In this document: positions 1-64,000 of the stretch, one piece after another
How the letters are laid out: every line of letters starts with the position of its first letter
How positions within the stretch are numbered: position 1 is the first letter of the stretch
NCBI GenBank assembly: GCA_964016885.1
Contig: OZ024740.1
Location: 21,328,001 to 21,392,000 of the forward strand
Direction: 5' to 3'
DNA length: 64,000 bases
DNA from: Eledone cirrhosa
Lineage: Eukaryota
The notes under the pieces: model-generated
The model's input: only the letters and a program-made list of their open reading frames with translations
Told to the model about the DNA's origin: nothing
The model's database searches: none
Translations under genes and position numbers: made by a program

Positions 1-1032
1 ACTTAGCACTACTGGACATTGCTGAGTTTTTGAGTATCAGGTATTTGGAGGCCATGGGTTTAGCATAGTGTGAGTGGAGAATTTGGGCTCTCTCGTCTAT
101 AGTGTTAATCCAGAGTTCTGTGTCTAATACAGGTAGTCTATTGTTAGGGTGTTTGGAAGGGAAGTCGATAGTTACAGTTATACTCTGGTGTATGGAATTA
201 GCTATCTGCTGGATGCTTTCCATCGTGTTACGTTCTAAATCAAACTTGTTAGTGCTCTCTAGTGGGGGTGTTCTTATAACTATATTGATATCGTCTACAT
301 AACGAGAGTACAGGTTGAGGTCTATGGAGCTCTCATTAAGGAGATCTTTAAGTCTCCTTTCCCACCATACCATGAAAAGGTTGGCAACATCACCAGCTAT
401 GCTGACGCCGATGGCTGCTCTCTCATTTTGGGTGTAGATCTTCCCGTTGAACTTAAATATGTGGCCCTTTAGGGTAGTTTTGATACTAGCCCCTATTGCA
501 TGTGCGACCATTTTTCTTACCTGATCATTGTTTTGGGGGGTCGGTATAGCTTTGGTCCACCCAATCCACCTTCCCATGGGAGTCTTTTTTGCCATTGAGG
601 TTATGGTGGGGCTCTACCTCTTATAGGTCTACTAGGGCAGAAACATCTAAGGTCATGGCTGTCTAGGTAGTCAGTGTCGTAGGTAAGTCTAAGTAGGAGG
701 CCCAGTTCGTCTGTGTCGACGTCGCAGAACTCCACCTCACTCTCAATGATCATCTCCACACATCTTTTCACAGCAAAATCAATGTTAATGGATGGGTACA
801 GTGACACCACATCCATGCTGCCTATTATGCAGTTGGATAGGCTCCTGTTTTTATTGCACTCACTGATTCTGCTGAGGAGGTCCTCTGTACTGTCACATAC
901 ATCTGGGGACATCTTGATTATGGGGCGTATAACCATTGAGAGGAAGTAGGAGACCCTATAGTTGCTAGCTATATTAGCTCCGCATACGGGTCTTGTTGGT
1001 GGTCCTGTTGTCGAGTCGTCGACTGTCTTGTG
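1..1032 (-). pseudogene. PLE reverse transcriptase fragment (frameshifted near 600-615)
   Basis: Reads GPPTRPVCGANIASNY...GSMDVVSLYPSI, then GAAIGVSIAGDVANLFM-type and SRYVDD motifs. Matches ORF 61227..62678. Confidence 0.88.
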
Positions 1033-1892
1033 CTAAGTTTAATATTCTGATCGCAGATTTGGTACGAGTGATGAAGAATGTGTCCCGCACGTGCGACCCA
1101 ACAGAAATGGAAAGACACATCCAACACTTCATCAACCGCATGCAGTTCTCTGGCTACAACCAAAGAGACAGAGTCAGAGTATACGAAGGAGCCATGGAAA
1201 AGTATAAGACCCTCATAGAACTGGACATGAAAGGAATTTTCCCATTATACAGGAGCAAATCATGGAATAGCTTAGATAGGGCTAGACATAAGATAGGGAA
1301 AGCCACCTCATGGTACGACAACCAGAGATACCAGAGTGTCATGTTTGTGGACGCCACCCCTGGAGGGAAATTATCTAACCAGTGTAGAAAGGCCCTGAGA
1401 AAGACCCACTTAAAAATAAAGGTGGTAGAAAAGCCAGGAACCACCATAAAACCCCGGATCAGCAAAACCTACCCTTTTAATAAAACCCACTGTACCAATA
1501 GGAAATGTATCATATGTAAGGTGAACCCCCGGATAAACTGTAAAACTAGAAACGTAGTCTATAGCATAAGATGTACAGAGGGTACTTGCAGAAACATGAC
1601 AACAACATACATAGGTGAGACAGCTCGTAGCATAGGTGAAAGGATAGACCAACACTGGGGGAAACTAAAAGGACGAAAAAACGGGTCAGTACTATACGAA
1701 CATGCTAGACAACAACATGACGGTAACATAGACAACATAGAAATTAGAATAATATCTAAACATAGAAATGACCCAGCAGATAGGCAAATCAGAGAGGCCA
1801 GTGAAATAGAAATTAGAAGACCAAGGCTAAACAGAAAGAATGAATGGAATAACAACACCCAAACAAACAACACTGACCTAAGAGAAGTATAA
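1030..1892 (+). CDS. PLE RT thumb plus GIY-YIG endonuclease, 5'-truncated
   Basis: ORF 993..1892 contains CxxxxCxxC, NVVYSIRC...YIGETARSIGERIDQH and RQIREASEI..LN; the first ~12 codons come from the other arm. Confidence 0.88.
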
Positions 1893-2133
1893 ATAAGTAA
1901 ATAGGGTAAAATAGGTGAATAAATAAATACATACACAAGCACAATAACAACAGGCACATAAACACACACTAGTCACCCATCACACAGCAAGCAAAACACT
2001 ATACACACACACAAACGCATGCGCAAAGAAGACAAAATAAAATAAACAAATAAGCAAATAAATAAATAAATATATAGACAGACTGAATAAAAATGGCGTA
2101 GACATACAATACAACAGGAGGAAAATATAACAC

Positions 2134-2171
2134 CACTGACGATGTTGCAGATGTGCAACGAAAGATTTATG
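2134..2171 (+). ncRNA. minimal type I hammerhead ribozyme motif in the PLE 3' end
   Basis: CA-CTGACGA-T-GTTGCA-GATG-TGCAAC-GAAA-GATT-TA-TG; the same motif is on the minus strand at 60917-60954. Confidence 0.7.
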
Positions 2172-2365
2172 ATAAACTATATATATGTGTTAGTGTCTAT
2201 ATTGTATCTGTATTATTTTTGACCGTCGGTCAGTCAATGGCAACATTGAGGACCGAGTAAGTTAGATTACCGATATAAAAGACACAGAAGCGGGAAGCGA
2301 AAACCAACCAAACAGTGAGTGTGTTCTGTTATTAATTCTGGCAATATTACACAAATATTACACAG

Positions 2366-2551
2366 GGCGGTGGATTGGCAGTATCGGTAGAGGGTCGGCC
2401 GCTATGCTTTCCAGCATAGTTACGTCCCTTTACGATCTGAGTTCAAATCCCGCCGAGGTTGACTTTGCCTTTCATCCTTACGGGGTCGATAAAATAAAGT
2501 ACCAGTAATGCACTGGGTAATTGCTGGCCTTGTGCCTAAAGTAGAAACAAT
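2366..2551 (+). mobile_element. tRNA-derived SINE with a Nin/Deu-like central domain, nested in the PLE 3' end
   Basis: A box TGGCAGTATCGG, B box GAGTTCAAATCC, core CTTTCATCCTTACGGGGTCGATAAAATAAAGTACCAG, TSD CAATATTACACAAATAT. Absent from the sister PLE copy at ~60720. Confidence 0.9.
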
Positions 2552-2643
2552 ATTACACAAATATGACCCTCCCCAGGTATAACAATATTTGTTTCGACAC
2601 ACGATTTCATATAAAAAAACCTCGCAAAACTAATTCATCGCCG

Positions 2644-2689
<46 letters not shown>

Positions 2690-3430: not shown

Positions 3431-3497
<67 letters not shown>

Positions 3498-3506
3498 TTA
3501 TACATG

Positions 3507-3662
3507 TATATGAAGGTGCCGTTAATGGTGAAAGCAGCGATTCTTTGCTTAAACTTTAATCTGTTATTTTAATAAATATTTGCTCTACGGTTCTTATATA
3601 TTTGATATATATTTATCCTTATCGAGCCCTCTTTGGATTTTAGTCTTCAAATTTATTATTAT

Positions 3663-3667
<5 letters not shown>
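3507..3667 (+). mobile_element. solo 3' end of the PLE family at 24417-27840
   Basis: GGTGAAAGCAGCGATTCTTTGCTTAAACTTTAATCTG... is the reverse complement of 24417-24565; another piece lies at 33250-33365. Confidence 0.8.
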
Positions 3668-3724: not shown

Positions 3725-3727
<3 letters not shown>

Positions 3728-4203
3728 GTAGGAGGTGAGTTTTATTGTAGCACAATAAAGCAATGCAAATATCGGATAAGTAGCACTCAACAGTTTATTG
3801 GACTGGAGTATATGTAAGAAGAAATTAAAAGATGGTTAAAAAGTTCCATGTATTTTATTATGCGCATTTCAAAAACAAATATCATCCAGGGAGGATATTT
3901 GCGTTCTCATCAGATAAAATAGGGAGACATGATATGAAGCTTAAAAAAGACACTTGTGAGCAAGGTAGTGTCTAATCAACATAGATGTAGTGTCTAAACA
4001 ATAGGTAATAATATAGGTAGTGTCTAAACAACATATATTGTTTAGACACTACCTTGCTCATAAGTGTCTTTTTTAAGCTTCATATCATGTCTCCCTATTT
4101 TATCTGATGAGAACGCAAATATCCTCCCTGGATGATATTTGTTTTTGAAATTCGCATAATAAAATACATGGAACTTTTCTAACCATCCTTTAATTTCTTC
4201 TTA
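3725..4203. mobile_element. non-coding fold-back element with a hammerhead in each arm
   Basis: Arms ~3815-3975 and ~4040-4203 are reverse complements; (TA)n on both sides; extra tail only on the left. Confidence 0.85.
4096..4166 (+). ncRNA. hammerhead ribozyme motif (mirror copy 3851-3921, minus strand)
   Basis: TATTTTAT-CTGATGA-GAACGCAAATATC...GATATTTGTTTTT-GAAA-T(G/T)CGCA-TA-ATAAAATA; 8-bp stem I, palindromic TGCGCA in the left copy. Confidence 0.85.
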
Positions 4204-4397: not shown

Positions 4398-4443
<46 letters not shown>

Positions 4444-4446
4444 TAT

Positions 4447-5371
4447 AAAGAATTAGTATATCTAGTAACATATATATACACAGATGCATACTTATGCTAC
4501 CAAATATGTAGGTTTTGTCTTAGTAACTTTGTGGTTCAATGCATGGGCATGCAGAACAATAATATGAGAGACGTAAAATAAGAAAATTATAAAATTAACT
4601 TACTTACTAAAATTTCACTCCAACTAATTAGTTTCTGAAAGGGAATAAACATAGTTTCCGAAGAAACGTACGGAGAAGCCTTTCGTCATCTGGGAAGTCT
4701 ATTCTCAGCTAGGTTTCCAGGCAAGACGTGGACACAGGGAACTTATACAAAAATAATTCAGTGGATGGAAAAAAGCAAAGCGTGGACTAAATTCCAAGCA
4801 ATTGAAAAAATCACTGCCTACTGCGTCGGTGGCAAATTCAAAAGAATCAGTCACGTGACATCGAGGTCAATCAGTGAAGAGTGGTTTGTTAAGAAGACAG
4901 CAGCCGGACCGTTACTATAGTAGCAGTTTTGGCCAATTTTTGCTCGACAAAATAATTTGGAGATAATTAAATGAATTAGTATATCTAGTAACATATATAT
5001 ACACAGATGCATACTTATGCTAGCAAATATATAGGTTTTGTCTTAGTAACTTTGTGGTTCAATGCATGGGGATGCAGAACAATAATATGAGAGACGTAAA
5101 ATAAGAAAATTATAAAATTAACTTACTTACTAAAATTTCAATGGCTTGGAATTTAGTCCACGCTTTGCTTTTTTCCATCCACTGAATTATTTTTGTATAA
5201 GTTCCATGTGTCCACGTATTGCCTAGAAACTTAGCTGAGAATAGACTTCCCTGATGACGAAAGGCTTCTCCGTACGTTTCTTCGGAAACTATGTTTATTC
5301 CCTTTCAGAAACTAATTAGTTGGAGTGAAATTTTAGTAAGTAAGTTAATTTTATAATTTTCTTATTTTACG

Positions 5372-5380
<9 letters not shown>
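4447..5380. mobile_element. element with both a direct and an inverted terminal duplication (PLE pLTR-like)
   Basis: 4450-4616 is directly repeated at 4973-5140; 4563-4800 is inverted at 5143-5380; flanked by (TA)n. Confidence 0.7.
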
Positions 5381-10919: not shown

Positions 10920-11633
10920 CGATTAGTTATTTAATTTGTTGATTATTCAATAAATTTAGTTTATAGAAGATTAGAAGCACTCAACAGGATTTCTTCTGGA
11001 GTATCAATAATATTAATAAATGGACAATTCAAATAGAACTCACAACATTAAGTTCTTGTCTGAATCACTATCTGTAAACCAACTTTTGTATTTTAAGCAA
11101 AAGAATGAGTGAATGAAAGAGTTACGAACCATTAAAACATATCTTTATATAGTTCTTACACGTGTTTCGCCCAGGGGTGCTCCTCGGAGGCAGTACTCAT
11201 ATAGCAAGTCCTTAATTACAAACTCCGAGAGGGTATAATAATATCACATCGCTATGCATTGTGATTTTAGATGTTATGGGTATAAATACGGCGAAAGGGT
11301 TATAATTCGCTAAGGGAGGTAATTACCGGTGCCCGTAGAAAGTTTACTGCATTACTTATGACCAATACCAGAAGTAATGCAGTAAACTTTCTACTGGCAC
11401 CAGTAATTACCTCCCTTAGCGAATTATACCCTTTCGCCGTATTTATACCGATAACATCTAAAATCACAATGCATAGCGATGTGATATTATTATACCCTCT
11501 CAGGGTTTGTAATTAAGGACTTGCTATATAAGTACTGCCTCCGACGAGTCCCCCTAGGCGAAACACGTGTAAGAACTATGTAAAGATATGTTTTAACGGC
11601 TTGTAAATCTTTCATTCACTCATTCTTTTGCTT
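10920..11633. mobile_element. non-coding fold-back element with degenerate hammerheads
   Basis: Arms 11095-11358 and 11372-11633; CCGA(C/G)GA...GGC-GAAA-CACGTG-TA in both arms. Confidence 0.85.
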
Positions 11634-11777
11634 ATTCCAGCTCTGCTTAATCTTTACACTAAATATTAACTTTCTCTAATATTTAACCCTGATAACCCAA
11701 GCATTGAGCACACTACGCATCTGCTTTTGGCATGTAATATTCTATCGCACATCTTTATACTTGCGATACAATTACCC

Positions 11778-11843
<66 letters not shown>

Positions 11844-12019
11844 AAAAAGAGATGAAATCGAAAATGCAACTGAAGTCTTATTTTTAAAAAAAATAAGACC
11901 AGTTGCATTTTCGATTTTATCTCTTTTTCTTTATACTTTCACTCGTGTAGGACACCTCGGTTATTTTTCATTTTGTAAAAAAAAACTCACTTTCTAATAT
12001 ATATATATATATATATTTA

Positions 12020-14628
12020 TAACAGAGAAAACACAGGTAAGCATTAAGAGAAGGATTTTATCCAGGTATTTACGACCGTTTCATTGGTAAGTGCAACCTT
12101 ATATTGCTATACTGCAAATAGCAGCCACTCAATTATAATTGTTGTTCACAGTCCAAATTTTCAAAATAGTGAGTAAGTTACTCTTGAAATAGTTCTTAAT
12201 ATATAGAGAAAAACATTTTTGGGGGAATTGTATTTACTAGTATAGAGAGAGAGGAATTAGAAGGTGAGGGGACAGACGGGATAGTATAGAGAGAGAGGAA
12301 GGGGGAAAGTTAGGAAGTGGAGTGACAAACTGAGATGGAGGGAGGGGTAGAGGTGGAAGGATTCCTTGATCAGTTTTGATATGTAGACTTCATGTCGTGG
12401 AATGTAGTGAGTTAAAGAGAATTAAGTTGATCATAGTGGGAGGGATGGATAGAGAGAGAGAGGGGGGGGGGGATAAAGAGATAAATATATATATAAAAAA
12501 ATAAAGATAAATATAATAATGACAAAAATAAAAGCAAAGAAAGGGAGAGAAAGAAGAAAAGAAAAGATTGCGAAAAAGGGGAGGGAAGGAAGGAAGAAAA
12601 CGAAGAAATAGAAGAGGAATGAAGGAGAAGGGATGGATATAGGTATTGGTTTTTGTGGGTAATTAAAAGATACAATAAGAGGGTATAAAGTCTAAGTATA
12701 TGCAGTTTGTCAGTTGGTAGTAAGAGGTTAAGGGTTCGATTTGCACTTGTAGTGCGAAAACTTCTCTTTGAGTCTATGGTTACAATAAATCGATCTTTCG
12801 ATTTTATTGTTGAGTAACTTATTCTTCGAACTCAAAATGTGGAACAGCTCAAGGTCCCATAATCGACAGCTTCTCATACCACTCCGATATGGGGGCGCGT
12901 TCGATAATTTTTCCACTTCAGGGTATATTGATGGTTACTTTCCCTCAGTTGCCAGGTCTTGTTTGCAAGGGTAGTTACATAACGATGCTGGGAATGATTC
13001 ATTGCGTAACGGTGTGTATACCAACGGGCTTTAAATGTATTCCCAGTCGCTCCGATGTAATACCATTTCTGGTCGTCTGATTCCACTGTGCATTGGTAAA
13101 CCAGGTTAGACTGCATACATTCATTATGTAATGGACAGGTTTCAGGTAGGTGGCAGTTACAATTCTTGTCATGGGCAACTTTGGCATTATTGGTGGGCTG
13201 CGATGCCTGTACAAGTGTGTTACGTTTTGTTTGCCTATTAGTGGGTGGTTGTGTATTAGATATTCTGTTGTGTTCAATGGCGATTGTATTGTTAGTGTTG
13301 TAAATTTGTGTTCTGGTGTTGTTATGTATCTTTTTAGCGTTAAGCATCTTAATGTGTGCCTCTATATTTGGTGCCGTGGAGTAAGATAGTCTAATAGATT
13401 AGTGTTAAGGATTTTGCTGTATCTATGTGAATCTGGAAAGTGCTTATTTATTATTCTAAAGAAGGTAGAGGGTAGGTTAGTACTAATAGAGGTGTTAAAT
13501 ATGGTGTTATACCAAATATATTTTCTACTCCGTGACTTGTTTGATTTCGATGTTATATTTCTATTTACCGTATACTTTGTAGTTCTATGCGTAAGTGCGT
13601 GTGTGGGTGTGTTTCTGAAGTTTGTGTTATGCGTGTTCGTGTGCGCTTTACGGAGGCTTTCATATATATATTCTACTCTATCTAAGTGGCCTGCCTTGTC
13701 TAATGCGGTATTGTAGTATTCTGCATGTTCCTCGAAGATTTGTCGGTTAGACGGGAGGCGGGAGATCCTAAGCGATATGCTGCGTGGAATGGATTTAATT
13801 ATGGATAGTGGGTGGTTTGAGTTACAGTTGATGTATGCTAAGTTTTCATTAATCTTGTGAAAAGGTCTTATAAGTAACACACTTGTACAGGCATCGCAGC
13901 CCACCAATAATGCCAAAGTTGCCCATGACAAGAATTGTAACTGCCACCTACCTGAAACCTGTCCATTACATCATGAATGTATGCAGTCTAACCTGGTTTA
14001 CAAATGCACAGTGGAATCAGACAACCAGAAATGGTATTACATCGGAGCGACTGGGAATGCATTTAAAGCCCGTTAGTATACACACCGTTACGCAATGAAA
14101 CATTCCCAGCATCGTTATGTAACTACCCTTGCAAACAAGACCTGAGGGAAAGTAACCGTCAATACACACTGAAGGAAAAAAAATTATCGAACGCGCCCCC
14201 ATATCGGAGTGGTATGAGAAGCTGTCGATTATGTGACCTTGAGCTGTTCCACATTTTGAGTTCGAAGAATAAGTTACTCAACAATAAAATCGAAAGATCA
14301 ATTTATTGTAACCATAGACTCAAAGAGAAGTGTTCGCACTACGAGTGCAAATGGAACCCTTAACCTCTTACTACCAACTGACAAACTGCATATAATTAGA
14401 GTTTATATCCTCTTATTATATCTAACCCCTTTATTTACCCACAAAAACCAATACCTATATCTTTCCCTCTCCTTCATTCCTCTTCTATTTCTTTTCGTTT
14501 TCTTCCTTTCTTTCCTCCCCTTTTTGGCTATCTTTTCTTTTCTTCTTTCTCACCCCTTCTTTGCTTTTATTTTTGTCATTATTATCTTTATCTTTATTTT
14601 TTATATATATATTTATCTCTTTATATCT

Positions 14629-14697
<69 letters not shown>

Positions 14698-15255
14698 ATC
14701 CCTCCCACTATGATCAATTTAATTCTCTTTAACTCACTATATTCCACGACATGAAGTCTACATATCAAAACTGATCAAGGAATCCTTCCACCTCTACCCC
14801 TCCCTCCAATTCAGTTTGTCACTCTACTTCCTAACTTTTCCCCCTTCCTCTCTCTCTCTCTATACTATTCCGTCTGTCCCCTCACCTTCTAATTCCTCTC
14901 TCTATATACTAGTAAATACAATTCCAAAAAAATGTTTTTCTCTATATATTAAGGACTATTTCAAGGACTATTTTGAAAATTTGGACTGTGAAAAACCCCT
15001 TATAATTGAGTGGCTGTTATTTGTAGTATAGCAATATAAGGTTGCACTTACCAATGAAACGGTCATAAATACCTGGATAAAATCCTGCTCTTAATGCTTA
15101 CCTGTGTTTTCTCTTTTATACTTTATTCTCCAAGATTGAACGGAATTCTTACAAACTTGTGGAGTTACTCCTAACCGTACGTTGAAACCATCAATGAAAC
15201 TGGCTTTCTTAACCACGAACTGGATCACAATAAGCAATTTTCTACTTCCCTAACT
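12020..15255. mobile_element. Penelope-like element fold-back (RT thumb plus GIY-YIG remnant)
   Basis: Minus arm 12020-13872 (SNHP, CNCHLPETCPLHNEC, LVYQC, YYIGATG); plus arm 13876-15115 duplicates the 3' ~1.2 kb; in (TA)n. Confidence 0.92.
14968..15075 (+). ncRNA. hammerhead-like motif, U3-A8 core with long stem II (mirror ~12062-12180)
   Basis: TATT-TTGAAAA-T-TTGG...(~70 nt)...CCAA-T-GAAA-CGGTC(G/A)-TA-AATA. Confidence 0.5.
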
Positions 15256-15353
15256 GTATATATATATATATATATATATATAAATATTGTCAACGGTGAA
15301 GGCATGTTTACTTACTAACAAAGCGAAAAATCGAAAGATGATAGAAATACGAG

Positions 15354-20529: not shown

Positions 20530-20532
<3 letters not shown>

Positions 20533-23500
20533 AAAGTTCTATTTAAATTGTTGGGATACAACAAGCAAATATTTTTATAACTTATATAAAGCACTCGACA
20601 AGTATTTGGAGTAAATATACGATATTAATAAATGGAAACTATATTTATAAAACCATATTTATTTCATTATACATATTTCAAGGATACCATTTTAAATTAT
20701 GGTATGCCTTCATCAGACAAAATTCAATATATACCAGTTTTATAAATAAACATTGACGTACCCTTTCAAAATGCGACCGTTACTTTTGGAAGACATCACG
20801 ATAGTGGTTTGTTTATTTTAGTAAGTCGTTGTGTTAAGGAGAAGGAAAAAGACGGAGAGAGAGAGAAACCGAGAGAGATAAAAGTGGAGAAAAGAAAGGG
20901 GGGAGATAAATAAAGAAAAAGAAGAAAGAAAAAAGAAAAAAAGAAAACAGAGAAAAACAACAGAGAGATATCAAACCACCAGACAGAGAGAAAAAATCAA
21001 GAGAGAGAAATATAGAGATAGAGAGAGGGGGAGAGAACGAAAACCTTAAGTCATGTCATATTAAGTTGAGTTAACAATTGAGATGAAATGAATAAATAAA
21101 ATTAGAAATATTAATATTCATGAATGGAATATACATATATAATATGAGAAATTAATCATTGTTTAGTTATGATTAGATATTTAGTTTAAAAATTGAGATC
21201 AATATATTAAAAATTGGAATTTAAACATTACGAAATATATATATTGCTAGAGAAATTACCTATCATATAGCACGTACATATACGCAAAAATGCATAAATA
21301 TATATATATATACACACACACTCAGAAAATACACACTATATCTACTTCCGCATATAATATATACATACAAAGCATAAATTATTATTTTTTTTTTTTTTAT
21401 TACTGCTATATATTCCTTGTGTTATTAAATAAAAAATTTTTAGTATATATATATATAAATATATAGGATTAACTTTCATGCATTTATGGCTGTTAAATTA
21501 TGGCTGTTAAATTATGCATATCTGCAATCAAATTGCATGGGTACACATGTACATATACACACACAATTCTTACATATACATATATAAACATGTGTGTGCA
21601 TCTTCACCCAATTGGTAGACATGCGTCACTCATGCATATATACAGACAGACATATATTCATAAAAATGCATACAACACATGCATATGTATGTTAATACAC
21701 ATACATACTTAGTCGTATAGAGATATGTATACATCAATATATTACATAGTACAATTGAGTATATAAAATACAAAAGGATTATATATTGGAAATATAATTA
21801 TATCAATATAATCTAAAAACAAAGGAATTCTACAAATATCAAAATATTAAAATATTTTAAAATATTATAGAATATTTTAATAATGCGCTTTTTCATCAAA
21901 TATATTCTTATTCGATGAAATTCTTGAAATTCTTTTTTTTGCTAAGTCTGCCCAGGTCAGATTTAGATGGGTATAGAAATAGAATTAAATACATCGATAA
22001 TAATAATAATATAAAAACTAACCAAAATAATAACAACTTTAATTATGGTAACAATTTTAACAACTATAATAGAAAACATTACAATAATTCCGAAAGCCGT
22101 AAAAGAAATAGAACTAGGAATATATTATAGTTCGCTCCTCCTTTCTCACTAAATATTAAAACCCCTATTGCTAAACTATTCTTTAAAGCTCTTGACAAAC
22201 GCTTCCCTAGAACACATAGATACTACACAATTTTTAATAGACATACTATAAAATTAACTTACTCGTCCACCAAAAATTTAGCGCAAAATATTAATAGAAT
22301 TAATAATAGAAATTTAAAACCTAACCAAAATACCAATAATAACCCAAGCAATATTCAATCGAATAATTGTAACTGTAGAAATAAATCCAAATGTCCGTTA
22401 AATAACAACTGCTTAGCTAAAAATGTAGTTTATAATTGTAATGTTAAAACGAATTTAAATTCATTTAATTATGTCGGTTCCACCTCCACAGAGTTTAAAT
22501 CCCGCTTCAATAATCATAAAAATTATTTTACAGATCCAAACAAAAAATCTTCAACTTCGCTATCTAGCCTATTATGGGACCTAAAACGAGATAATGTTGA
22601 ATATTCGCTGATTTGGAATATTATTTCATAAGCTACTCCTTTTAATTCCTCTTCAGAAAATTGCGATCTTTGTATAGAGGAAGTATTCTTTATATTAAAG
22701 ACCAAAAATTCCCTTAATTTAAGAAATAATTTATTCAGTTGCTGCAGACATAGATTGAACTCAACGTTTAAATATAAATATAAATTTAAAATGTAGTATA
22801 ATTAATTAAGTAATTTGGTTAATATATGAAACCTGTCGATAAATCATTAGATTCCTTCACCTTTTTCATTTTCTTTGGTTAAGTACTCAAGTATAAATAA
22901 ATTTTCTTCCTAAATATAAATATAAATATAATAAACAATTCTAGAAAAGTTTATCCTATCAATATCTTGAGTAAAATATACGTAAGATAAATTTATATAC
23001 TAAATATATTAAACATATTTTTTAACTTAAAATATTCTATAATATTTTTAAATATTTTAATATTTTGATATTTGTAGAATTCTTTTGTTTTTTAAGTTAT
23101 ATTGATATAATATTTTATTTACTTTTTATTAGGTTTATTTTTATTCTGATAGCTTCTCATAACTTTCAAAAGTTTATCCTTTCAATATCTTGAATAAAAT
23201 ATACGTAAGATAAATTTCTATACTAAATCTATTAAACATATTATTTTAACTTAAAATATTCTATAATATTTTAAAATATTTTAATATTTTGATATTTGTA
23301 GAATTCCTTTGTTTTTAGATTATATTGATATAATTATATTTCCAATATATAATCCTTTTGTATTTTATATACTCAATTGTACTATGTAATATATTGATGT
23401 ATACATATCTCTATACGACTAAGTATGTATGTATGTGTATTAACATACATATGCATGTGTTGTATGCATCTTTATGAATATATGTCTGTATATATGCATG

Positions 23501-24416: not shown

Positions 24417-24419
<3 letters not shown>

Positions 24420-35370: not shown

Positions 35371-35399
35371 AAAGAATAGAGGTGTAACACACAAGTTAT

Positions 35400-36171: not shown

Positions 36172-36199
36172 ATATATAGAGAGTATTTACGTATCGAGA

Positions 36200-38272: not shown

Positions 38273-38314
<42 letters not shown>

Positions 38315-38509: not shown

Positions 38510-38572
<63 letters not shown>

Positions 38573-38573
<1 letters not shown>

Positions 38574-41145: not shown

Positions 41146-41319
41146 CTTTTTTATTTATATATATATATAGTTGTGTATCTATATCAATGTTCTGAAGACT
41201 AGGATTTCAATTACCTGTTTAAACATTCTCTATGCTCCGATGATACAAGACATGCGTCTGGAAGAAACAATTGTTCGCAATTAAATGTATTAAACTAAGA
41301 TTTGATTGTTTTATATTTT

Positions 41320-44462: not shown

Positions 44463-44660
44463 GTGTGTGTGTTTGTGTGTGTCTCTGTGTGTGTCTCTGT
44501 GTGTTTGTGTGTGTGTCTGTGTGTGTAACATTAGTGTGGTGTGGAACGGAATGTTTGCGCCTTCTACAGTTAGTAAACAATGAAGGTAAAGAAAACAATT
44601 ATGTCAGTGTGGATGACATGTGTACATATATATACATATATATAGAGAGAGAGAATGAAT

Positions 44661-45402
44661 AATAACAGGTAGACATCATAAAAAGGTAATTTATTCCGTG
44701 TGCTTACAAATGTTTCCACGGTGATTATACAGCCTAGTTATGCTGTGCAAATTTATGACTGTTTGCAAAACTCAATTATCAAATGCTCTTACCACTGTTT
44801 TCCTCAGAGCAGAATGGTTAAAATGTAAAATGTAAATACCCTTAAGGGAAGTTATTGGGGAAGATAGAGTAGAAAAGGAAGAGAGAAAGAAGGGGTGAGG
44901 GAGAGAAAGAGAGAGATATACAGCTCTCTCTCTCTCTCTCTCTCGCCCTCGATCCACCTCCCTCCCTCTCCACATCTATGAACCTGCCCTCTGTGGCAAT
45001 AAATAATTCCAACCTTAACTATCAACGCATCGCTTAAGGTTGTCGCTTTGAGAGTAACCAGTATAATAAAACCCCTACTACAACATTTTGATTAAGATAT
45101 CTGTATTCTACAAACCACTCTCTCCCATTTCTCCAACCCCTGCATATCTCTCTCTTTCTCCCTCTCCCCTTCTTTCTCTCTTCTTTTTCTACTCTATCTT
45201 CCCCAATAACTTCAATTAAGGGTATTTACATTTTACATTTTAACCATTCTGCTCTGAGGAAAACAGTGGTCACAGCATTTGATAATTGAGTTTTGCAAAC
45301 AGTCATAAATTTGCACATAGCATAACTAGGCTGTATAACCACCGTAGAAACATTTGTAAGCACACGGAATAAATTACCTTTTTATGATGTCTACCTGTTA
45401 TT
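44661..45402. mobile_element. non-coding fold-back with long-stem-II hammerheads
   Basis: Arms ~44661-44925 and ~45140-45402; tail to ~45555 on the right only. Confidence 0.88.
45250..45362 (+). ncRNA. hammerhead motif with ~85-nt stem II region (mirror ~44701-44811)
   Basis: TGCT-CTGAGGA-AAACAGTGGT...ACCACCGTA-GAAA-CATTTG-TA-AGCA. Confidence 0.65.
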
Positions 45403-45554
45403 ACACTCCGGATTACAGAAGGATCAGGAACTGAGTTTCTTCAACTATTTTTCCATAACTCGTTGAGTAACCCCTCACCATACGTCAACCCTATCCAGTG
45501 TAGTAATTAACCATTACTGCATTCAGGATAATCCTAAGCATTTCTTGCATAAAC

Positions 45555-45616
<62 letters not shown>

Positions 45617-47107: not shown

Positions 47108-47227
<120 letters not shown>

Positions 47228-47337
47228 TATTTTCCGTTGTGTTGTAATATAAATATTACACACAGTAGATTATCAGCTCACGTAGAGTTTGCTCGACGGT
47301 TCCAGTTGTAGTTCCAAAAGTAATCCGGAGAAAAATA

Positions 47338-48302
47338 GAAAGATTTGAATGGATACAGTTTAGTTGAAAGGAATTTATTGACACGTGTTTCTATAACAGT
47401 TACGTAACCTAAAACAGCTGCTATCTACAAACTTTTAGTTATGCAGACATTCAATATTTCAATGTTATTATTTACTGTCATTTCATCAGAATAATATTAC
47501 TGAGGACCTATTTAGTTTTTATAGAGAATATTAGGAGGGAGGGGTGAAGTTGTTAGAAGAATAGTTGAAGGAGTGGTTTTTCGATAGCAGTGAGAATTCT
47601 TGGTGGCAGTGAGTAATTAGATTCCCATCTGTTGTTTTGACATTTTTTATAGAATATATTATTGGTTATTTTTCTAAATCTATAGAAGGATTAGAGATAG
47701 TAAAGATATGCGTGGTTGGTTTTGTGTTTGCACTTAATTAACATTCAGACTTAAATTTTTCTTTCAAGTGTAAGTATCCTTTCACACACGCATTCACACA
47801 TGTGTGTGAATGCGTGTGTGAAACACATGTGTGAAACACATATGTGTGAATGCGTGTGTGAAAGGATACTTACACTTGAAAGAAAAATTTAAGTCTGAAT
47901 GTTAATTAAGTGCAAACACAAAACCAACCACGCATATCTTTACTATCTCTAATCCTTCTATAGATTTAGAAAAATAACCAATAATATATTCTATAAAAAA
48001 TGTCAAAACAACAGATGGGAATCTAATTACTCACTGCCACCAAGAATTCTCACTGCTATCGAAAAACCACTCCTTCAACTATTCTTCTAACAACTTCACC
48101 CCTCCCTCCTAATATTCTCTATAAAAACTAAATAGGTCCTCAGTAATATTATTCTGATGAAATGACAGTAAATAATAACATTGAAATATTGAATGTCTGC
48201 ATAACTAAAAGTTTGTAGATAGCAGCTGTTTTAGGTTACGTAACTGTTATAGAAACACGTGTCAATAAATTCCTTTCAACTAAACTGTATCCATTCAAAT
48301 CT

Positions 48303-48305
<3 letters not shown>
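47338..48305. mobile_element. near-perfect ~970-bp fold-back with long-stem-II hammerheads
   Basis: Arms ~47338-47800 and ~47843-48305; the centre has small duplicated palindromes; tail 47225-47338 on the left only. Confidence 0.9.
48149..48268 (+). ncRNA. hammerhead motif with ~90-nt stem II region (mirror 47375-47494)
   Basis: TTATT-CTGATGA-AATGACAGT...ACTGTTATA-GAAA-CACGTG-TC-AATAA. Confidence 0.75.
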
Positions 48306-49470: not shown

Positions 49471-49527
<57 letters not shown>

Positions 49528-50335
49528 CATGTATACGCACATACATATATGTATACAGACGTACAGTAGTATGTATATACATACATACATGCACACATAC
49601 ATATATGTACGTATGGATTCACCGAACACTTATTATAATGCTCGGTGTGTCTGTAAACAAACAGCCCGAATTAAGCCGTACAGTGTTCGGCAACCATCGT
49701 TGCCCTTTTGTTCAACGCTGACAAAGGAACGATGAAGTAGTTTCCAGCTTATCAGCTGTCATCAGCACCGTACACCTTCCTGTCAGTCGATTGAACGTTT
49801 GAAAGCATATACCCTCCTTATGTATATTAACGACTGAACAGCCTAATTTGCATATCGAGTGAGTTAGTCGGCCGGGCGTACCGAAAACAATAAATGGAAA
49901 AAATGAAATTTCATTTCTCACTCTTAGTACGGTCGACTAACTCACTCGATATGCAAATTAGGCTGCTCAGCCGTTAATATACATAAGGAGGGTATATACT
50001 TTCAAACGTTCAATCGACTGACAGGAAGGTGTACGGTGCTGATGACAGCTGATAAGCTGGAAACTACTTCATCGTTCCTTTGTCAATGTTGAACAAAAGG
50101 GCAACGATGGTTGCCGAACACTGTACGGCTTAATTCGGGCTGTTTGTTTACAGACACACCGAGCATTATAATAAATGTTCGGTAAATCCATACGTACATA
50201 TATGTATGTGTGCATGTATGTATGTATATACATACTACTGTACGTCTGTATACATATATATGTGCGTATACATGCTTATATTTAAGTATCAGCCGTACTA
50301 AGAGTGAGAAATTAAATTTCATTTTTTCCATTTAT
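49528..50335. mobile_element. non-coding fold-back with hammerheads (50035-50073 plus; ~49730-49768 minus)
   Basis: Arms ~49528-49870 and ~49935-50275; GGTG-CTGATGA-CAGCT-GATA-AGCTG-GAAA-CTAC-TT-CATC. Confidence 0.88.
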
Positions 50336-54947: not shown

Positions 54948-55082
54948 GCACTCATATGTGTATATATATATATATATTTATGTGTGTGTGGGTGTGTGTA
55001 AGCAGTCATTTATATATATATATATATATATATACATATGACTGCTTACGTTTGCTTGAAGCATTGTGTAATATGAAACAAT

Positions 55083-55762
55083 GCAGATGGATAAATCTCC
55101 GGGTAACAAAATCATGTGGCAATTGGAAGAACGGAGATAAGGAAGATGAAAAATGTAAGAAGAAATGTAAAATGAAATGAAAGCTAAAGATTAAATGAAA
55201 ACCAAAACCTTGGAATAGATTTATTGGTCTCTATATTTCGGATCTTACATCCACCGGCAGGAGATTCCAAGGGAACTTCGAAGGTTTGTCGGAAAAGAAT
55301 CTACGTGGAATGTACCTGCCACCATCTTTTCCCCCACCTACCTACCACATCAACCAGAGCTACTACCAAAATGCAGAGAGACAACACTGGCGCGTGCCTG
55401 CGAACCCTTCCATACCTCATCCATCCTATGATTTAGAGGCGACTACTAACTTTAACGACCTCTGATTGACCGCGCCGATTTCATGTGCACGCGCCCGATT
55501 GGGAATATTCGTTGGCGTATTTCAATCAGTCTGACACCAATACTAGCAACAAACGGCCATGTAGATTATTTTCCGACAAACCTCCGACGTTCCTTCAGAA
55601 TGGATGTGAAATCCGAAATATGAGGGCCAATAAATATATTCCAATATAACTTCATCTCTGGTTTTCATTTCATCTTAGATTTCTTTTTACGTTTCTCTTC
55701 CTCTTTATCCCCTTTCTCCCTACTGCCACCTGATATTGTTACCCGTAGATGTATCCATCTGC
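55083..55762. mobile_element. old, diverged fold-back
   Basis: GCAGATGGATA..GGGTAACAA mirrored at ~55738-55762; GGTTTGTCGGAAAA mirrored at ~55569-55583. Confidence 0.65.
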
Positions 55763-55789
55763 TTTGTATAAGCTTCTAAAACGATCATT

Positions 55790-55843
<54 letters not shown>

Positions 55844-58141: not shown

Positions 58142-58199
<58 letters not shown>

Positions 58200-58240
58200 G
58201 GAAGTAAGGTTCTATACAAAACAGTGGATATAGAGAAAAA

Positions 58241-58598
58241 GTGAAGTTGGAAATAGCACGGAAAATATATCTTAGGGTCTGCTTTTCTTTTTTTTTCCCC
58301 CCTTTCATTGATTCGTCAAAGTGACATTATTGAAAAAATGAGAGAGACAATTCGTTTAAAAAATATTTTATAATGTATATAAAGTATTACCGGTTTCGAT
58401 GTATTATTAAAATTCATCTTATCAAATGTTGAGTATTACAATTAAAAAGATTTGATCGGAATTGAAAACTAAAAATTAAAGATTTAAAATTAAGTGCTGG
58501 AGTAAATTTTTTTAAAAGAATTGTCCCTCTCATTTTTTCAATAATGTCAATTTGAACAGACCCTAAAATATATTGTTCGTGCTATTTCCAACTTCACC
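58241..58598. mobile_element. diverged fold-back with a U3-A8 hammerhead at 58384-58428 (minus)
   Basis: GTGAAGTTGGAAATAGCACG is mirrored; minus strand AT-TTGATAA-GATG...CATC-GAAA-CCGG-TA-AT. Confidence 0.7.
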
Positions 58599-58608
58599 GT
58601 CTCTCTCA

Positions 58609-58662
<54 letters not shown>

Positions 58663-60610: not shown

Positions 60611-61226
60611 TTATATATATATATATATATATATACATAGCGGCGATGAATTAGTTTTGCGAGGTTTTTTATATGAAATCGTGTGTCGAAACAGATATTG
60701 TTATATTTGGGGAGGGTCATATTTGCGTAATATTGCCAGAATTAATAACAGAACACACTCACTGTTTGGTTGGTTTTCGCTTCTCGCTGTCTTTTATATA
60801 TATATATCTGCGATCTAACTTACTCGGTCCTCAATGTTGCCATTGACTGACCGGCGGTCAAAAATAATACAGATACAATATAGACAAACACATATATATA
60901 TAGTTTACATAATTTACATAAATCTTTCGTTGCACATCTGCAACATCGTCAGTGGTGTTATATTCATTGTTCCTCCTGTTGTGTTGTATGTCTACGCCAT
61001 TTTTTTTTTGTTCAGTCTGTCTATATATTTATTTATTTATTTGCTTGTTTGTTTATCTTATTTTATTTTGTCTTCTTTGCGCATGCGTTTGCGTGTGTGT
61101 ATAGTGTTATGTGTGATGTGTGACTAGTGTGTATAGTGTTGTGTCTGCTGGGTGACTAGTGTGTGTTTATGTGCTTGTGTATGTATTTATTTATCTTATT
61201 TTATTTTATTTAATTTACTTATTTAT

Positions 61227-62678
61227 TTATACTTCTCTTAGGTCAGTGTTGTTTGTTTGGGTGTTGTTGTTGTTCCACTCATTCTTTCTGTTTAGCTTTG
61301 GTCTTCTAATTTCTATTTCACTGGCCTCTCTGATTTGCCTATCTGCTGGGTCGTTCCTATGTTTAGATATTATTCTAATTTCTATGTTGTCTATGTTACC
61401 GTCATGTTGTTGTCTAGCATGTTCGTATAGTACTGACCCGTTTTTTCGTCCTTTTAGTTCCCCCCAGTGTTGGTCTATCCTTTCACCTATGCTACGAGCT
61501 GTCTCACCTATGTATGTTGTTGTCGTGTTTCTGCAAGTACCCTCTGTACATCTTATGCTATAGACTACGTTTCTAGTTTTACAGTTTATCCGGGGGTTCA
61601 CCTTACATATGATACATTTCCTATTGGTACAGTGGGTTTTCTTAAAAGGGTAGGTTTTGCTGATCAGGGATTTTATGGTGGTTCCTGGCTTTTCTACCAC
61701 CTTTATTTTTAAGTGGGTCTTTCTCAGGGCCTTTCTACACTGGTTAGCTAATTTCCCTCCAGGGGTGGCGTCCACAAACATGACACTCTGATATCTCTGG
61801 TTGTCGTACCATGATGTGGCCTTCCCTATCTTATGTCTAGCCCTATCTAAGCTATTCCATGATTTGCTCCTGTATAGTGGGCAAATTCCTTTCATGTCCA
61901 GTTCTATGAGGGTCTTATACTTTTCCATGGCTCCTTCGTATACTCTAACTCTGTCTCTTTGGTTGTAGCCAGAGAACTGCATGCGGTTGATGAAGTGTTG
62001 GATGTGTCCTTCCATTTCTGTTGGGTCGCACATGCTGGACACATTCTTCATCACTCGTACCAAATCTGCGATCAGAATATTAAACTTAGCACTACTGGAC
62101 ATTGCTGAGTTTTTGAGTATCAGGTATTTGGAGGCCATGGGTTTAGCATAGTGTGAGTGGAGAATTTGGGCTCTCTCGTCTATAGTGTTAATCCAGAGTT
62201 CTGTGTCTAATACAGGTAGTCTATTGTTAGGGTGTTTGGAAGGGAAGTCTATAGTTACAGTTATACTCTGGTGTATGGAATTAGCTATCTGCTGGATGCT
62301 TTCCATCGTGCTACGTTCTAAATCAAACTTGTTAGTGCTCTCTAGTGGGGGTGTTCTTATAACTATATTGATATCGTCTACATAACGAGAGTACATGATG
62401 AGGTCTATGGAGCTTTCATTAAGGAGATCTTTAAGTCTCCTTTCCCACCATACCATGAAAAGGTTGGCAACATCACCAGCTATGCTGACGCCGATGGCTG
62501 CTCCCTCATTTTGGGTGTAGATTTTCTCATTGAACTTAAATATGTGGCCCTTTAGGGTAGTTTTGATACTAGCCCCTATTGCATGTGCGACCATTTTTCT
62601 TACCTGATCAGTGTTTTGGGGGGCCCGTATAGCTTTGGTCCACCCAATCCACCTTCCTATGGGAGTCTTTTTAGCCAT
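61227..62678 (-). CDS. PLE RT (YVDD) plus GIY-YIG endonuclease, 5'-truncated
   Basis: GAAIGVSIAGDVANLFM, SRYVDDIN, LPVLDTELW, HYAKPMAS, NVVYSIRC, YIGETARS. Confidence 0.93.
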   Translation of the reverse strand: MAKKTPIGRWIGWTKAIRAPQNTDQVRKMVAHAIGASIKTTLKGHIFKFNEKIYTQNEGAAIGVSIAGDVANLFMVWWERRLKDLLNESSIDLIMYSRYVDDINIVIRTPPLESTNKFDLERSTMESIQQIANSIHQSITVTIDFPSKHPNNRLPVLDTELWINTIDERAQILHSHYAKPMASKYLILKNSAMSSSAKFNILIADLVRVMKNVSSMCDPTEMEGHIQHFINRMQFSGYNQRDRVRVYEGAMEKYKTLIELDMKGICPLYRSKSWNSLDRARHKIGKATSWYDNQRYQSVMFVDATPGGKLANQCRKALRKTHLKIKVVEKPGTTIKSLISKTYPFKKTHCTNRKCIICKVNPRINCKTRNVVYSIRCTEGTCRNTTTTYIGETARSIGERIDQHWGELKGRKNGSVLYEHARQQHDGNIDNIEIRIISKHRNDPADRQIREASEIEIRRPKLNRKNEWNNNNTQTNNTDLREV

Positions 62679-62841
62679 TGAGGTTATGGTGGGGGGTCTA
62701 CCTCTTATAGGTCTACTAGGGCAGAAACATCTAAGGTCATGGCTGTCTAGGTAGTCAGTGTCGTAGGTAAGTCTAAGTAGGAGGCCCAGTTCGTCTGTGT
62801 TTTAGCCGTTCAGCTTGTGTTTTGTTCAATAATATTATTGA

Positions 62842-64000
62842 ACAAAACACAAAACACAAGCTGAACGGCTAAAACACACAATAACAGTTAATATGAAAAG
62901 AACAACATACACAAAAGTCAACGCACTCTACAGACAAAAACGCATCAACGGTAAGGAAATCCGAAATCTCATCACAGCAAACGAGAGAGATGACTTCATG
63001 AGCGTCATCCGACGCGAAACGAAATATGCTCAAAACGAATGCTGTAGGCATTTCAAGAAGAAATTAGAATGGATGAATAAGAAAAAACTACAAGAAAGGA
63101 AAATCGAATATTCTCAAAAATACCCAGATAACATCGACAACATCCGTATGAGTGATGTAAAACTACCGGAAGAATTTACCAATGACTACACAGTAAATAT
63201 CTATGGGAACACTTTAATCAGTGAACAAGAACAACAAATCCTAAAGTTACCACCAAAATTTGCCATCTACAAAAAGATTAACCCTATGGAATGCAAAACG
63301 GAGCTGGAAAAGTGTTTCACAAAAATACGTTGGAATGCAAAGGTAAACAACAACAACAATAATAACGGTAGTAGTAATATAAACAATAACTCTGGGTATA
63401 GAAATAACAGCCATAACCATAACAATGGCAGGAAAGTGAGAAATAGTGATAATGGTAATAATACTAGCGATAGACAGAACAACAACAACCACAATAATAA
63501 TAATAATAGAAACGTTAACCACAGACACAGCAACAGTGACCACAGTAGTAATAACGGTAACAATACGAACAACAACAACAACAATAACCACAGTGGTAAT
63601 AATGGAAATAGTACATGTAGCAACATCAACAAAAACAAGAAACATAATAATAGTAACAACCACAATGGTAGAAATAGCAGTAACAACAACAACAATAACG
63701 GTGAAGTAAACAACAATACATCTAGCAATCATAATAATAATATTAATGCTAATGATAGAAACAACAACAACCACCATGATAACAATAATAGCAACACACA
63801 CAACTATGACGATAGAAATAACGACAACCCCTTAGAGAAACTATTTTTCAACCCAGCTGACAAAACATATAAGATGGGTAATATCTATCCTACGAGGTTA
63901 CCCTTTAATAAAAGAGTTTGCATACCACAGCAAATAGATGACGAGACGGAGGCACAGTTCACCATAGCTAGAAATAAGATTAGACAAGTAGTAGACAGGT
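62842..64000 (+). CDS. PLE polyprotein N-terminal region with an Asn-rich insert; open to the window end and absent from the ORF track
   Basis: Hand-translated frame with no stop (first ATG 62893): YGNTLISEQEQQILKLPPKFAIY..ELEKCFTKIRW, ~160 aa N/S/H-rich, then FNPADKTYKMGNIYPTRLPFNKRVCIP. Confidence 0.8.

What the first reader, a model, noticed from the sequence alone, without database searches (positions are those of the whole stretch)
1..64000. Population of tail-out fold-back Penelope-type elements with hammerhead ribozymes, targeted to (TA)n
Seen: seven coding PLE insertions (1-2645, 12020-15255, 20530-24355, 24417-27840, 36200-38272, 38573-41145, 60639-64000) and many non-coding units (3725, 10920, 32175, 33400, 35115, 35400, 44661, 47338, 49528, 55083, 58241). 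They share one design: two copies of the element 3' end pointing outward, joined at truncated 5' ends, flanked by (TA)n, and usually with a hammerhead core (YTGANRA, stem II, GAAA, palindrome, TH) in each arm. The two edge elements are only partly visible. Established: PLEs can have inverted pLTRs and carry minimal hammerheads. Inference: the inverted form dominates across unrelated RT lineages here, and the short units are either extreme truncations or an independently spreading class of ribozyme-bearing palindromic elements that TE annotation would mislabel as MITEs.
Basis: partly seen in the sequence, partly recalled or inferred. Interest (0 to 1): 0.85.

Follow-up and report, generated by a model that had tools for sequence, protein, structure and literature searches.

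The report
Octopus Penelope insertions built as palindromes
About half of this likely octopus DNA consists of cut-down Penelope-like jumping genes inserted as mirror-image pairs in TA repeats, a known arrangement, and the position of their single extra end piece suggests that each pair is likely made by copying one RNA twice rather than by one copy folding back.

Summary
22 whole units and 2 edge units have two outward-pointing 3' ends and cover 47% of the window. All 7 coding inserts are Penelope-like elements (PLEs): 4 Hydra-clade, 3 Neptune/Nematis-type. Hammerhead motifs far exceed chance (12 against 0.36 in shuffles) but sit in both arms in only 13 of 22 units.

The form, the (TA)n target and paired opposite-strand hammerheads are all in print, and this scan noted the pattern before in other genomes.

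An independently spreading palindrome class is not supported. In the one family tested with reads, depth collapses at the centre, other copies run on upstream or turn at other points, and no joint is common. That junction was not spanned by any listed read, so it is unconfirmed.

The new part is mechanistic. The tail lies on the shorter arm in several units, which single-cDNA fold-back cannot produce. Arms are of equal length too often and share private variants. Best model (inferred): two cDNAs primed from both target strands at two start sites on one RNA, then joined.

The parts
1..2644 (.). Neptune/Nematis-type PLE, family A. Long antisense arm 1-1029 (RT, runs off the window); short sense arm 1030-2644 with thumb, GIY-YIG, hammerhead motif 2136-2169, a SINE inserted at 2364-2547, and the distal (tail) end
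3495..3665 (+). One-armed stub of the 24417 family (3513-3663): tail plus 66 nt, 5' end inside the hammerhead core
3726..4201 (.). Non-coding palindrome, arms 3817-4003 and 4018-4201, 91-nt tail left, hammerhead motif in both arms; terminus related to 20530 (z 7.5)
4441..5377 (.). Three-part unit: tail + arm + 162 nt, a second antisense tail copy (4970-5140), then a tail-less sense arm 5136-5377 joined over 5 shared nt. Classic two direct plus one inverted pLTR layout without ORF
11094..11780 (.). Palindrome, 8-nt loop, 146-nt tail right, U4C hammerhead core in both arms; terminus related to 36179 (z 11). A stub of another family abuts it at 10918-11093
11841..11996 (.). Mini palindrome, 45-nt arms, 65-nt tail right, no hammerhead; centre at a natural T/A quasi-palindrome also present in paralogue 10542
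12017..15256 (.). Hydra-clade PLE. Long tail-less arm left (thumb and EN, minus strand, to about 13873); SHORT arm right 13874-15120 with 136-nt tail; U3-A8 hammerhead motifs with long stem II
20530..24353 (.). Hydra-clade PLE. SHORT arm left (20621-21880) with 91-nt tail; long tail-less arm right carrying thumb and EN on the plus strand
24417..27839 (.). Hydra-clade PLE. Long arm left with 89-nt tail and RT/EN on the minus strand; short arm 27162-27839 (2 substitutions in 678 nt); U4A hammerhead core in both arms
28923..29405 (.). Diverged family A unit: long left arm and a right arm of about 25 nt
31645..31840 (.). Mini palindrome, 57-nt arms, 80-nt tail right; only the 3' half of the hammerhead (whole motif in paralogue 2857-2985)
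32176..32756 (.). Asymmetric unit: 62-nt tail-less left arm, long right arm with hammerhead motif 32434-32513 and 169-nt tail
33252..33366 (.). Smallest unit, 24417 family: tail plus about 12 nt, joined to an inverted tail-less arm of about 18 nt
33404..33993 (.). Asymmetric unit, hammerhead motif 33824-33854 in the long right arm, 39-nt tail right; terminus related to 38571 (z 4.9)
34559..34732 (.). Mini palindrome related to 31645, 69-nt tail right
35100..35332 (.). Palindrome whose centre lies 2-3 nt upstream of the hammerhead core; 84-nt tail right
35367..35796 (.). Near-perfect palindrome, 193-nt arms, 4-nt loop matching the tail-less arm's template, 40-nt tail left, A13C hammerhead variant
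36179..38276 (.). Hydra-clade PLE, long arm left (thumb and EN, minus strand) with 162-nt tail; short arm 37817-38273
38571..41155 (.). Neptune/Nematis-type PLE, long arm left (RT to EN, minus strand, EN core partly deleted) with 85-nt tail; short arm 40649-41143
44645..45557 (.). Non-coding unit, 264-nt arms, 154-nt tail right, long-stem-II hammerhead motifs; terminus related to 12017 (z 9.2)
47225..48305 (.). Young palindrome, 470-nt arms with 1 difference, 113-nt tail left, hammerhead motifs 48154-48263 (+) and 47489-47380 (-). 5'-truncated member of a very high-copy family; both arms stop at the same template base and are bridged by snap-back filler
49524..50332 (.). Three-part unit: tail-less left arm, antisense copy of the tail in the spacer, right arm with 55-nt tail
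55035..55791 (.). Old inverted unit (17% arm divergence), hammerhead decayed, tail side unclear
58197..58627 (.). Asymmetric unit, hammerhead motif 58425-58388 (-) in the long left arm, short tail left
60640..64000 (.). Family A PLE. SHORT antisense arm 60640-62800 with distal end, hammerhead motif 60952-60919 and an open RT-EN frame; hairpin filler of about 38 bp at 62796-62878 joined over 5 shared nt; long sense arm from the Asn-rich N-terminus, running off the window

Best explanation
These units are 5'-truncated insertions of many Penelope-like retroelement families in (TA)n, and each mirror-image pair is likely made at the moment of insertion by two reverse transcriptions of one RNA. Shown: two 3' ends point outward, one ending at an internal site and one at a distal site 35-170 nt further on (the tail); junctions differ between copies. 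Inferred steps: (1) the GIY-YIG endonuclease nicks both strands of (TA)n; (2) one nick primes at the internal site, often helped by a few A/T bases that match the target, the other at the distal site; (3) the downstream enzyme would displace the first cDNA, so the same stretch is copied twice; (4) each cDNA stops on its own, or both stop at the same RNA end or hairpin, which gives the perfect palindromes; (5) the two cDNA 3' ends are joined over microhomology, sometimes after short snap-back synthesis. The short units are the short end of this series. The hammerhead rides along in the 3' region and is predicted not to be needed for insertion.
For: One tail per unit in 21 of 22 and never two flush ends, so the two starts are coordinated. 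Tail on the long arm in 24417, 36179, 38571, 33404, 58197, 32176, 28923, 4441 and probably 44645, but on the SHORT arm in 12017 (by about 600 nt), 20530 (about 1,200 nt), 33252 and both edge units: the long arm holds ORF sequence the tailed arm never had. Arms of equal length within 15 nt in 8 of 21 units against 1.3 by random pairing, reached in 0 of 20,000 trials. Both arms of 47225 share three bases that over 99% of X1 depth lacks. (TA)n loose ends at both 47226 and 47335 in independent contigs. A/T microhomology at the internal start: mean 2.5 against 1.1 nt, P about 0.001, 15 units. Five shared nt at the 62800 and 5136 junctions and fillers at 47800 and 62800. In vitro a Poseidon PLE cuts and extends both strands and starts at two sites that bound the tail, and hammerhead mutants still insert (PMC11167929).
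Against: Shared private bases also fit fold-back, or gene conversion between arms. Nine tail-on-long-arm units and the 8 symmetric ones are each compatible with fold-back, so two routes may coexist. The far ends of the two edge units are outside the window. In vitro initiation was reported as not homologous to the target, unlike the microhomology here, and 4 of 15 units have none. No listed contig spans the 47225 centre. Arm lengths in the equal-length test were set by hand. Only one family was tested with reads.
Confidence: 0.6

Rival explanations
1. Single-template fold-back: one cDNA (or an antisense RNA, as proposed for rotifer Penelope) folds back at its 3' end and copies itself, stopping short of the tail.
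For: 8 of 21 units are near-perfect palindromes, the arms share private variants, and hairpin fillers exist at 62796-62878 and 47800-47843. Self-priming was proposed in PMC3846280.
Against: A copy cannot exceed its template, so the tail must lie on the long arm; it lies on the short arm in 12017, 20530, 33252 and both edge units. The tails of 12017 and 20530 are genuine element sequence, homologous to the tails of 44645 and 3726. The small loops of 35367 and 11841 match the tail-less arm (only 3-4 nt, weak). The internal end recurs at one site in 8 contigs.
Confidence: 0.17
2. Two cDNAs, but from two different RNA molecules bound by one enzyme dimer.
For: Explains the tail on either arm and independent truncation; the protein is predicted to be a dimer. 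The stretch 2857-3426 may join ends of two families.
Against: Does not explain the excess of equal-length arms, or arms 99.5-99.8% alike where family copies in the window differ by 2-6% with private bases shared, unless both RNAs come from one locus or conversion follows.
Confidence: 0.14
3. The short units are an independently spreading class of ribozyme-bearing palindromes, copied whole with a fixed centre.
For: Only about 5 of 14 non-coding units tested have a direct terminal homologue among the window's coding elements. No coding master was seen for the 47225 family. Units 4441 and 49524 could be read as tandem monomers of about 525 and 425 nt.
Against: 47225 family: X1 depth 40,000-195,000 along tail and arm, 370 and 3 at the centre; no joint at 2% or more; 172 and 293 raw reads leave at the truncation point into one common upstream sequence; other turn points at 47711, 47493 and 47717. 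Paralogues in the window (35367 v 28600; 31645 v 34559 v 2857; 11841 v 10542; 24417 v 33252 v 3513) all differ at the junction. Coding elements have 3' regions of 0.3-1.4 kb, long enough to supply every short arm. Non-coding masters remain possible, but not as fixed palindromes.
Confidence: 0.06
4. Assembly or amplification chimeras.
For: The 47225 centre was not spanned by any listed piece in 4 runs; perfect palindromes are a known amplification artefact (recalled).
Against: Inversions stop at element-internal sites and never include flanks; arms differ by 0.2-17% with private indels and a one-arm SINE; independent contig sets hold other palindromic turn points of the same family; the form is published from other assemblies.
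Confidence: 0.03

Closest known systems
Inverted-pLTR insertions with a one-sided tail of endonuclease-bearing PLEs (Arkhipova et al. 2013, PMC3846280; Craig et al. 2021 Fig. 2, PMC8557442)
   Same: Head-to-head arms (3' ends out), 5' truncation, tail at one end, palindromes at the junction, two direct plus one inverted repeat (4441, 49524), Asn-rich ORF insert (62842-63999).
   Different: Tails here are 35-170 nt rather than 30-40; most units lack the upstream direct pLTR; density is extreme (47% of the window); enough units to test the mechanism.
Hydra clade of PLEs, including Hydra-1_Obim of Octopus bimaculoides (PMC8557442 section 11 and supplements)
   Same: CxCX5C linker, no CCHH, CxxC before the conserved E, divergent RT motif 4, hammerhead, (TA)n target; a TTGAGCAC-like tail motif as in Hydra-2_Amil.
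   Different: At least four further families; several hammerhead motifs with stem II inserts of 50-90 nt.
Minimal hammerheads of metazoan PLEs (Cervera and de la Pena 2014, PMC4209133)
   Same: Palindromic helix III, U3-A8 variant, pairs on opposite strands 100-700 bp apart, mostly in truncated copies.
   Different: Long stem II inserts, two families with a true helix III stem, and core changes (U4A, U4C, A13C) shared by both arms.
Poseidon PAc of Anolis in vitro (Frangieh et al. 2024, PMC11167929)
   Same: Both strands cut and extended, AT-rich target, two start sites bounding the tail.
   Different: The parts I read do not link this to inverted arms, and report no target homology at the start sites.
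LINE-1 twin priming (recalled, from no call)
   Same: Two target strands prime on one RNA and give an inverted 5' part joined over microhomology.
   Different: In LINE-1 the two parts do not overlap; here the same 3' region is present twice.
Animal non-LTR retrozymes (bioRxiv 10.64898/2026.07.22.740005) and MITEs
   Same: Short, non-coding, hammerhead-bearing PLE derivatives; inverted ends and TA flanks resemble MITEs.
   Different: Retrozymes are head-to-tail tandems; MITEs have symmetric ends and a fixed interior, like 59966-60357 in this window, which has no tail and no hammerhead hit.

Membership tests
EN+ Penelope-like element | PLE-type RT followed by a C-terminal GIY-YIG endonuclease in one ORF | tested here: met
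   RT and/or thumb plus GIY-YIG motifs in 7 of 7 coding units, most with stops or frameshifts; Pfam RVT_1 only weak, E 0.002 and 0.0004; 190 homologues of the family A protein, best 66% Octopus vulgaris. No tree built.
EN+ Penelope-like element | 5' truncation with direct or inverted pLTR and one-sided tail | tested here: met
   21 of 22 whole units
EN+ Penelope-like element | Hammerhead motif in the terminal repeat, sense strand | tested here: met
   At least one arm in 17 of 22 whole units and both edge units; enrichment over shuffles
Hydra clade (12017, 20530, 24417, 36179) | CxCX5C linker, no CCHH, CxxC before the conserved E | tested here: met
   Read from translations against the definition; decayed in 36179
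Hydra clade (12017, 20530, 24417, 36179) | Divergent RT core like Hydra-1_Obim | tested here: met
   24417 RT matched by eye to Hydra-1_Obim motifs; RT core not retained in the other three
Hydra clade (12017, 20530, 24417, 36179) | N-terminal RWK and DKT motifs | not testable with these tools
   Copies are truncated before these motifs
Neptune or Nematis clade (1, 38571, 60640) | CX2-5CxxC linker plus CCHH in EN | tested here: met
   Family A has both; 38571 has the linker, its EN core is partly deleted
Neptune or Nematis clade (1, 38571, 60640) | Placement in an RT tree | not tested
   No named reference proteins were held as sequences; clade left unresolved
Active hammerhead ribozyme | Core boxes, stem II, helix III or palindrome, NUH site | tested here: inconclusive
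   Canonical boxes in both arms in 8 of 22 units; C3-G8 / U3-A8 swap between homologous termini; whole-motif folding z only -2.3 to +0.4 in 8 of 8 folded
Active hammerhead ribozyme | Self-cleavage | not testable with these tools
   Needs an RNA assay
MITE | Symmetric terminal repeats and a fixed interior shared by copies | tested here: not met
   One-sided tails; centre not shared
Non-LTR retrozyme | Head-to-tail tandem monomers, each with a hammerhead | tested here: inconclusive
   Not met by the palindromes; 4441 and 49524 hold a partial second tail, and 59444-59651 holds two same-strand motifs 180 nt apart

The most novel reading that the evidence does not exclude
Penelope-like elements integrate by a twin-priming route of their own: a dimer nicks both strands of (TA)n and copies one RNA twice from two fixed start sites, so every insertion builds a fresh palindrome with exactly one tail; and some octopus families (4441, 49524) are protein-free hammerhead mini-elements of 400-550 nt that ride on this route.
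Probability: 0.3. Interest if true: 0.72.

Novelty: new member of a known kind. Interest (0 to 1): 0.42.

Why it matters
How PLEs make their tandem and inverted insertions is named as an open question in PMC8557442. This window gives three countable rules that separate the models: one tail per unit, the tail on either arm, and an excess of equal arms with shared variants. They can be tested genome-wide and in the existing in vitro system. For annotation, short hammerhead palindromes in TA repeats should be filed as PLE ends, not MITEs; if the window is typical, PLE content in octopus may be undercounted. Thousands of long inverted repeats would also be a source of double-stranded RNA and of assembly error. 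As a class of element it is not new.

Tried and rejected
No whole genome is held, so the genome-wide inverted-repeat and junction clustering could not be run. Rfam gave only microsatellite-driven miRNA-type matches among the 150 rows listed of 243. The first strict hammerhead descriptor missed long or bulged stem II forms and mis-paired the 47225 motif with a nearer GAAA (corrected); several motifs (3726, 11094, 35100, one arm each of 20530, 36179, 38571) were called by inspection. The first arm alignment ran through spacers and was redone. The first microhomology test (18 units, P 0.0004) could be inflated by boundary sliding and was redone on 15 units; dropped were 11094, 38571, 44645 (flank not TA) and 28923, 33252, 55035, 58197 (boundary uncertain). 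Folding z-scores were not significant for most motifs. No RNA holder was listed. The Atlas search gave only generic RT clusters. Depth ratio of tail to arm was not used as evidence for inverted dominance, since one-armed copies would give the same ratio. Paper searches for a two-cDNA model of PLE inversion: 'Penelope-like + twin priming + inverted' gave 2 unrelated papers (listing only); 'Penelope + retrotransposon + inverted repeat + strand displacement + tail' gave 0. Most subscription papers are not in that library, and the supplements of PMC11167929 were not read.

Full report
SETTING. The window is 35% G+C and full of (TA)n runs. The best protein relative of the 61227-62744 frame is from Octopus vulgaris (66%), with O. 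bimaculoides further down, among 190 hits. A dispersed 180-nt repeat looks like an octopus SINE (name recalled). So the host is probably an octopus. No genome is held.

1. OBSERVATION. Self-comparison finds local inverted arms at every place named. Precise alignment (plus for 28923 and 33252) gives 22 whole units and two edge units, 30,224 of 64,000 nt. All seven coding inserts hold PLE protein sequence. Four (12017, 20530, 24417, 36179) have the CxCX5C linker and lack CCHH, the Hydra definition, and the 24417 RT matches Hydra-1_Obim motif by motif (by eye). Three (1, 60640, 38571) have the CX4CxxC linker of Neptune/Nematis; 1 and 60640 are one family, 95-98% alike, and 62842-63999 is the Asn-rich N-terminus of that kind of ORF. 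Hammerhead motifs are enriched: 12 against 0.36 and 9 against 0.125. They are in both arms in 13 of 22 units, one arm in 4, and absent, halved or decayed in 5. Homologous termini of 12017, 44645 and 47225 swap C3-G8 for U3-A8, which suggests selection on the core, but folding energies are unremarkable and cleavage is untested. About ten one-armed ends also occur.

2. In 21 of 22 units exactly one arm carries an unmatched 35-170 nt tail; none has two flush ends. The tails are element sequence. They align between families (12017 with 44645, z 9.2; 36179 with 11094, z 11.1; 20530 with 3726, z 7.5; 12017 with 47225, z 5.5). Ten of 18 tails examined carry a 7-nt motif with a background rate of 0.0005 per base (motif chosen after seeing the tails), also present near the 3' end of the published Hydra-2_Amil. 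About 5 of 14 non-coding units tested have a direct homologue among the window's coding elements; the rest share only layout, hammerhead or tail motif.

3. ARE THE SHORT UNITS INDEPENDENT? I laid three contig sets and one raw RAD run on 47225-47900. In X1, word depth is 34,000-61,000 over the tail and 38,000-195,000 over the arm, then 370 and 3 at the centre (depth is not a copy number). No joint reached 2%. In X10, 172 and 293 reads leave at the two mirror positions 47800 and 47843 into one common upstream sequence (agreement 0.94 and 0.96), which begins with a natural 16-nt palindrome. Other contigs turn back at 47711 (X1), at 47493 just upstream of the hammerhead core (X4, 2 contigs), and jump from 47717 into the sense strand (X4). 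(TA)n loose ends sit at 47226 and 47335. So this palindrome is a one-off truncation of a longer, very abundant element with two fixed 3' ends. Against a clean result: no listed piece spans this centre, the holders share only 41% of words at best, and only 30 upstream bases were shown, so whether the master encodes a protein is unknown. Paralogues within the window also differ at every junction.

4. MECHANISM. Orientation of ORFs and hammerheads in the spacers tells which arm is longer. The tail is on the long arm in eight units (probably nine, 44645 judged by composition only) and on the short arm in 12017, 20530 and 33252, and in both edge units, whose other ends are unseen; 49524 is ambiguous. 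A folded-back copy cannot hold more than its template, so those units need two separately templated cDNAs. The two are coordinated: one tail each. Three signs point to one RNA: equal arm length in 8 of 21 units against 1.3 expected; arms 99.5-99.8% alike in the young units where family copies differ by 2-6%; and three bases shared by both arms of 47225 that over 99% of X1 depth lacks. The internal start often falls on A/T bases in phase with the target (7 of 15 with 3 nt or more, P about 0.001). Junctions show 5 shared bases (62796-62800, checked against the copy at 716; 5136-5140) and snap-back fillers (62796-62878; 47800-47843). This fits the in vitro behaviour of PAc: both strands cut and extended, two start sites bounding the tail, hammerhead not needed. 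Strand displacement, single-RNA use and the joining pathway are inferred. Fold-back may still make some symmetric units, and conversion between arms could mimic shared variants.

5. WHAT IS KNOWN. Arkhipova 2013 calls head-to-head the most frequent inverted form, with junction palindromes, and proposes self-priming (passages; Discussion). Craig 2021 draws the inverted copy and one-sided tail and defines Hydra with (TA)n targets and an Octopus family (passages; section 11; supplement searches). Cervera and de la Pena 2014 report opposite-strand hammerhead pairs 100-700 bp apart and the U3-A8 core (parts 1-2 of 4). Frangieh 2024: parts 1-2 of 4 and a term search. The 2026 retrozyme preprint: part 1 of 5. 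An O. vulgaris repeat annotation lists 31 recently active Penelope-like families and has no mention of hammerheads or palindromes (passages). A curation guide notes inverted pLTRs and 3' extensions (passages). I found no two-cDNA account of the inverted form in searches; that library lacks most subscription papers. Earlier notes of this scan describe the same stubs in other genomes; none was found for this genome or this sequence.

6. VERDICT. Real, dense and a good example, but a known architecture in new families. The independent-palindrome idea fails where tested. The remaining value is that the population separates models of PLE integration. Interest 0.42; new member of a known kind.

Noticed in passing
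run X5 (organism B) on window 47225-47732: One 519-nt contig matches tail and arm with 1 substitution and 3 gap bases, then runs into (TA)n, while the family is otherwise nearly absent from that run (5 records against 459 in X1). Could be a close relative without the expansion, recent transfer, or contamination.
   Followed up: no
window 59444-59651 (-): Two compact hammerhead motifs with GUC sites on the same strand, 180 nt apart and related (z 7.9), separated by a microsatellite; retrozyme-like or two stubs.
   Followed up: partly
window 46559-46626 (-): Well-formed hammerhead motif (5-bp helix I, 8-nt palindrome) in a one-armed unit at about 46209-46775 with no partner arm.
   Followed up: partly
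window 2857-3426: A tail-less end of the 31645 family runs without (TA)n into a 49524-family arm that starts with 26 nt of antisense tail; possibly a non-overlapping twin-primed insertion or a two-family chimera.
   Followed up: partly
window 3513, 35176, 31703 and X4 loose end at 47493: Several 5' ends or turn points fall at or inside the hammerhead; most others lie 45-320 nt upstream.
   Followed up: partly
window 59966-60357: Symmetric 24-38 nt terminal inverted repeats flush with TA, no tail, no hammerhead hit: a mariner-type MITE (type recalled), a useful contrast.
   Followed up: partly
window 17937-19426 (-): PIF1 helicase fragments (Pfam E 3e-55), probably a Helitron remnant.
   Followed up: no
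window 2364-2547, 6542-6723, 15626-16713, 30522-30892, 34115-34195, 53178-53301, 54102-54297: Dispersed 180-nt SINE-like family; at 6723-9000 it runs into a 45-nt tandem array derived from its own 5' end.
   Followed up: no
window 38392-38508: A sense copy of the 38571 tail alone lies just left of that element, across a (TA)n run.
   Followed up: no
window 27918-28466 with 20414-20438; 35912-36119: Other inverted-repeat units with no hammerhead found; class not determined.
   Followed up: no
window 42663-43349 and 51532-52842 (+): A 228-aa frame resembling the C-terminus of a non-LTR element (recalled) and a 436-aa frame with no Pfam family above cut-off.
   Followed up: no
window 4808-4969, 32238-32525, 55309-55556: Spacers of short units hold CACGTG and CCAAT-like motifs, possibly the internal promoter.
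   Followed up: no
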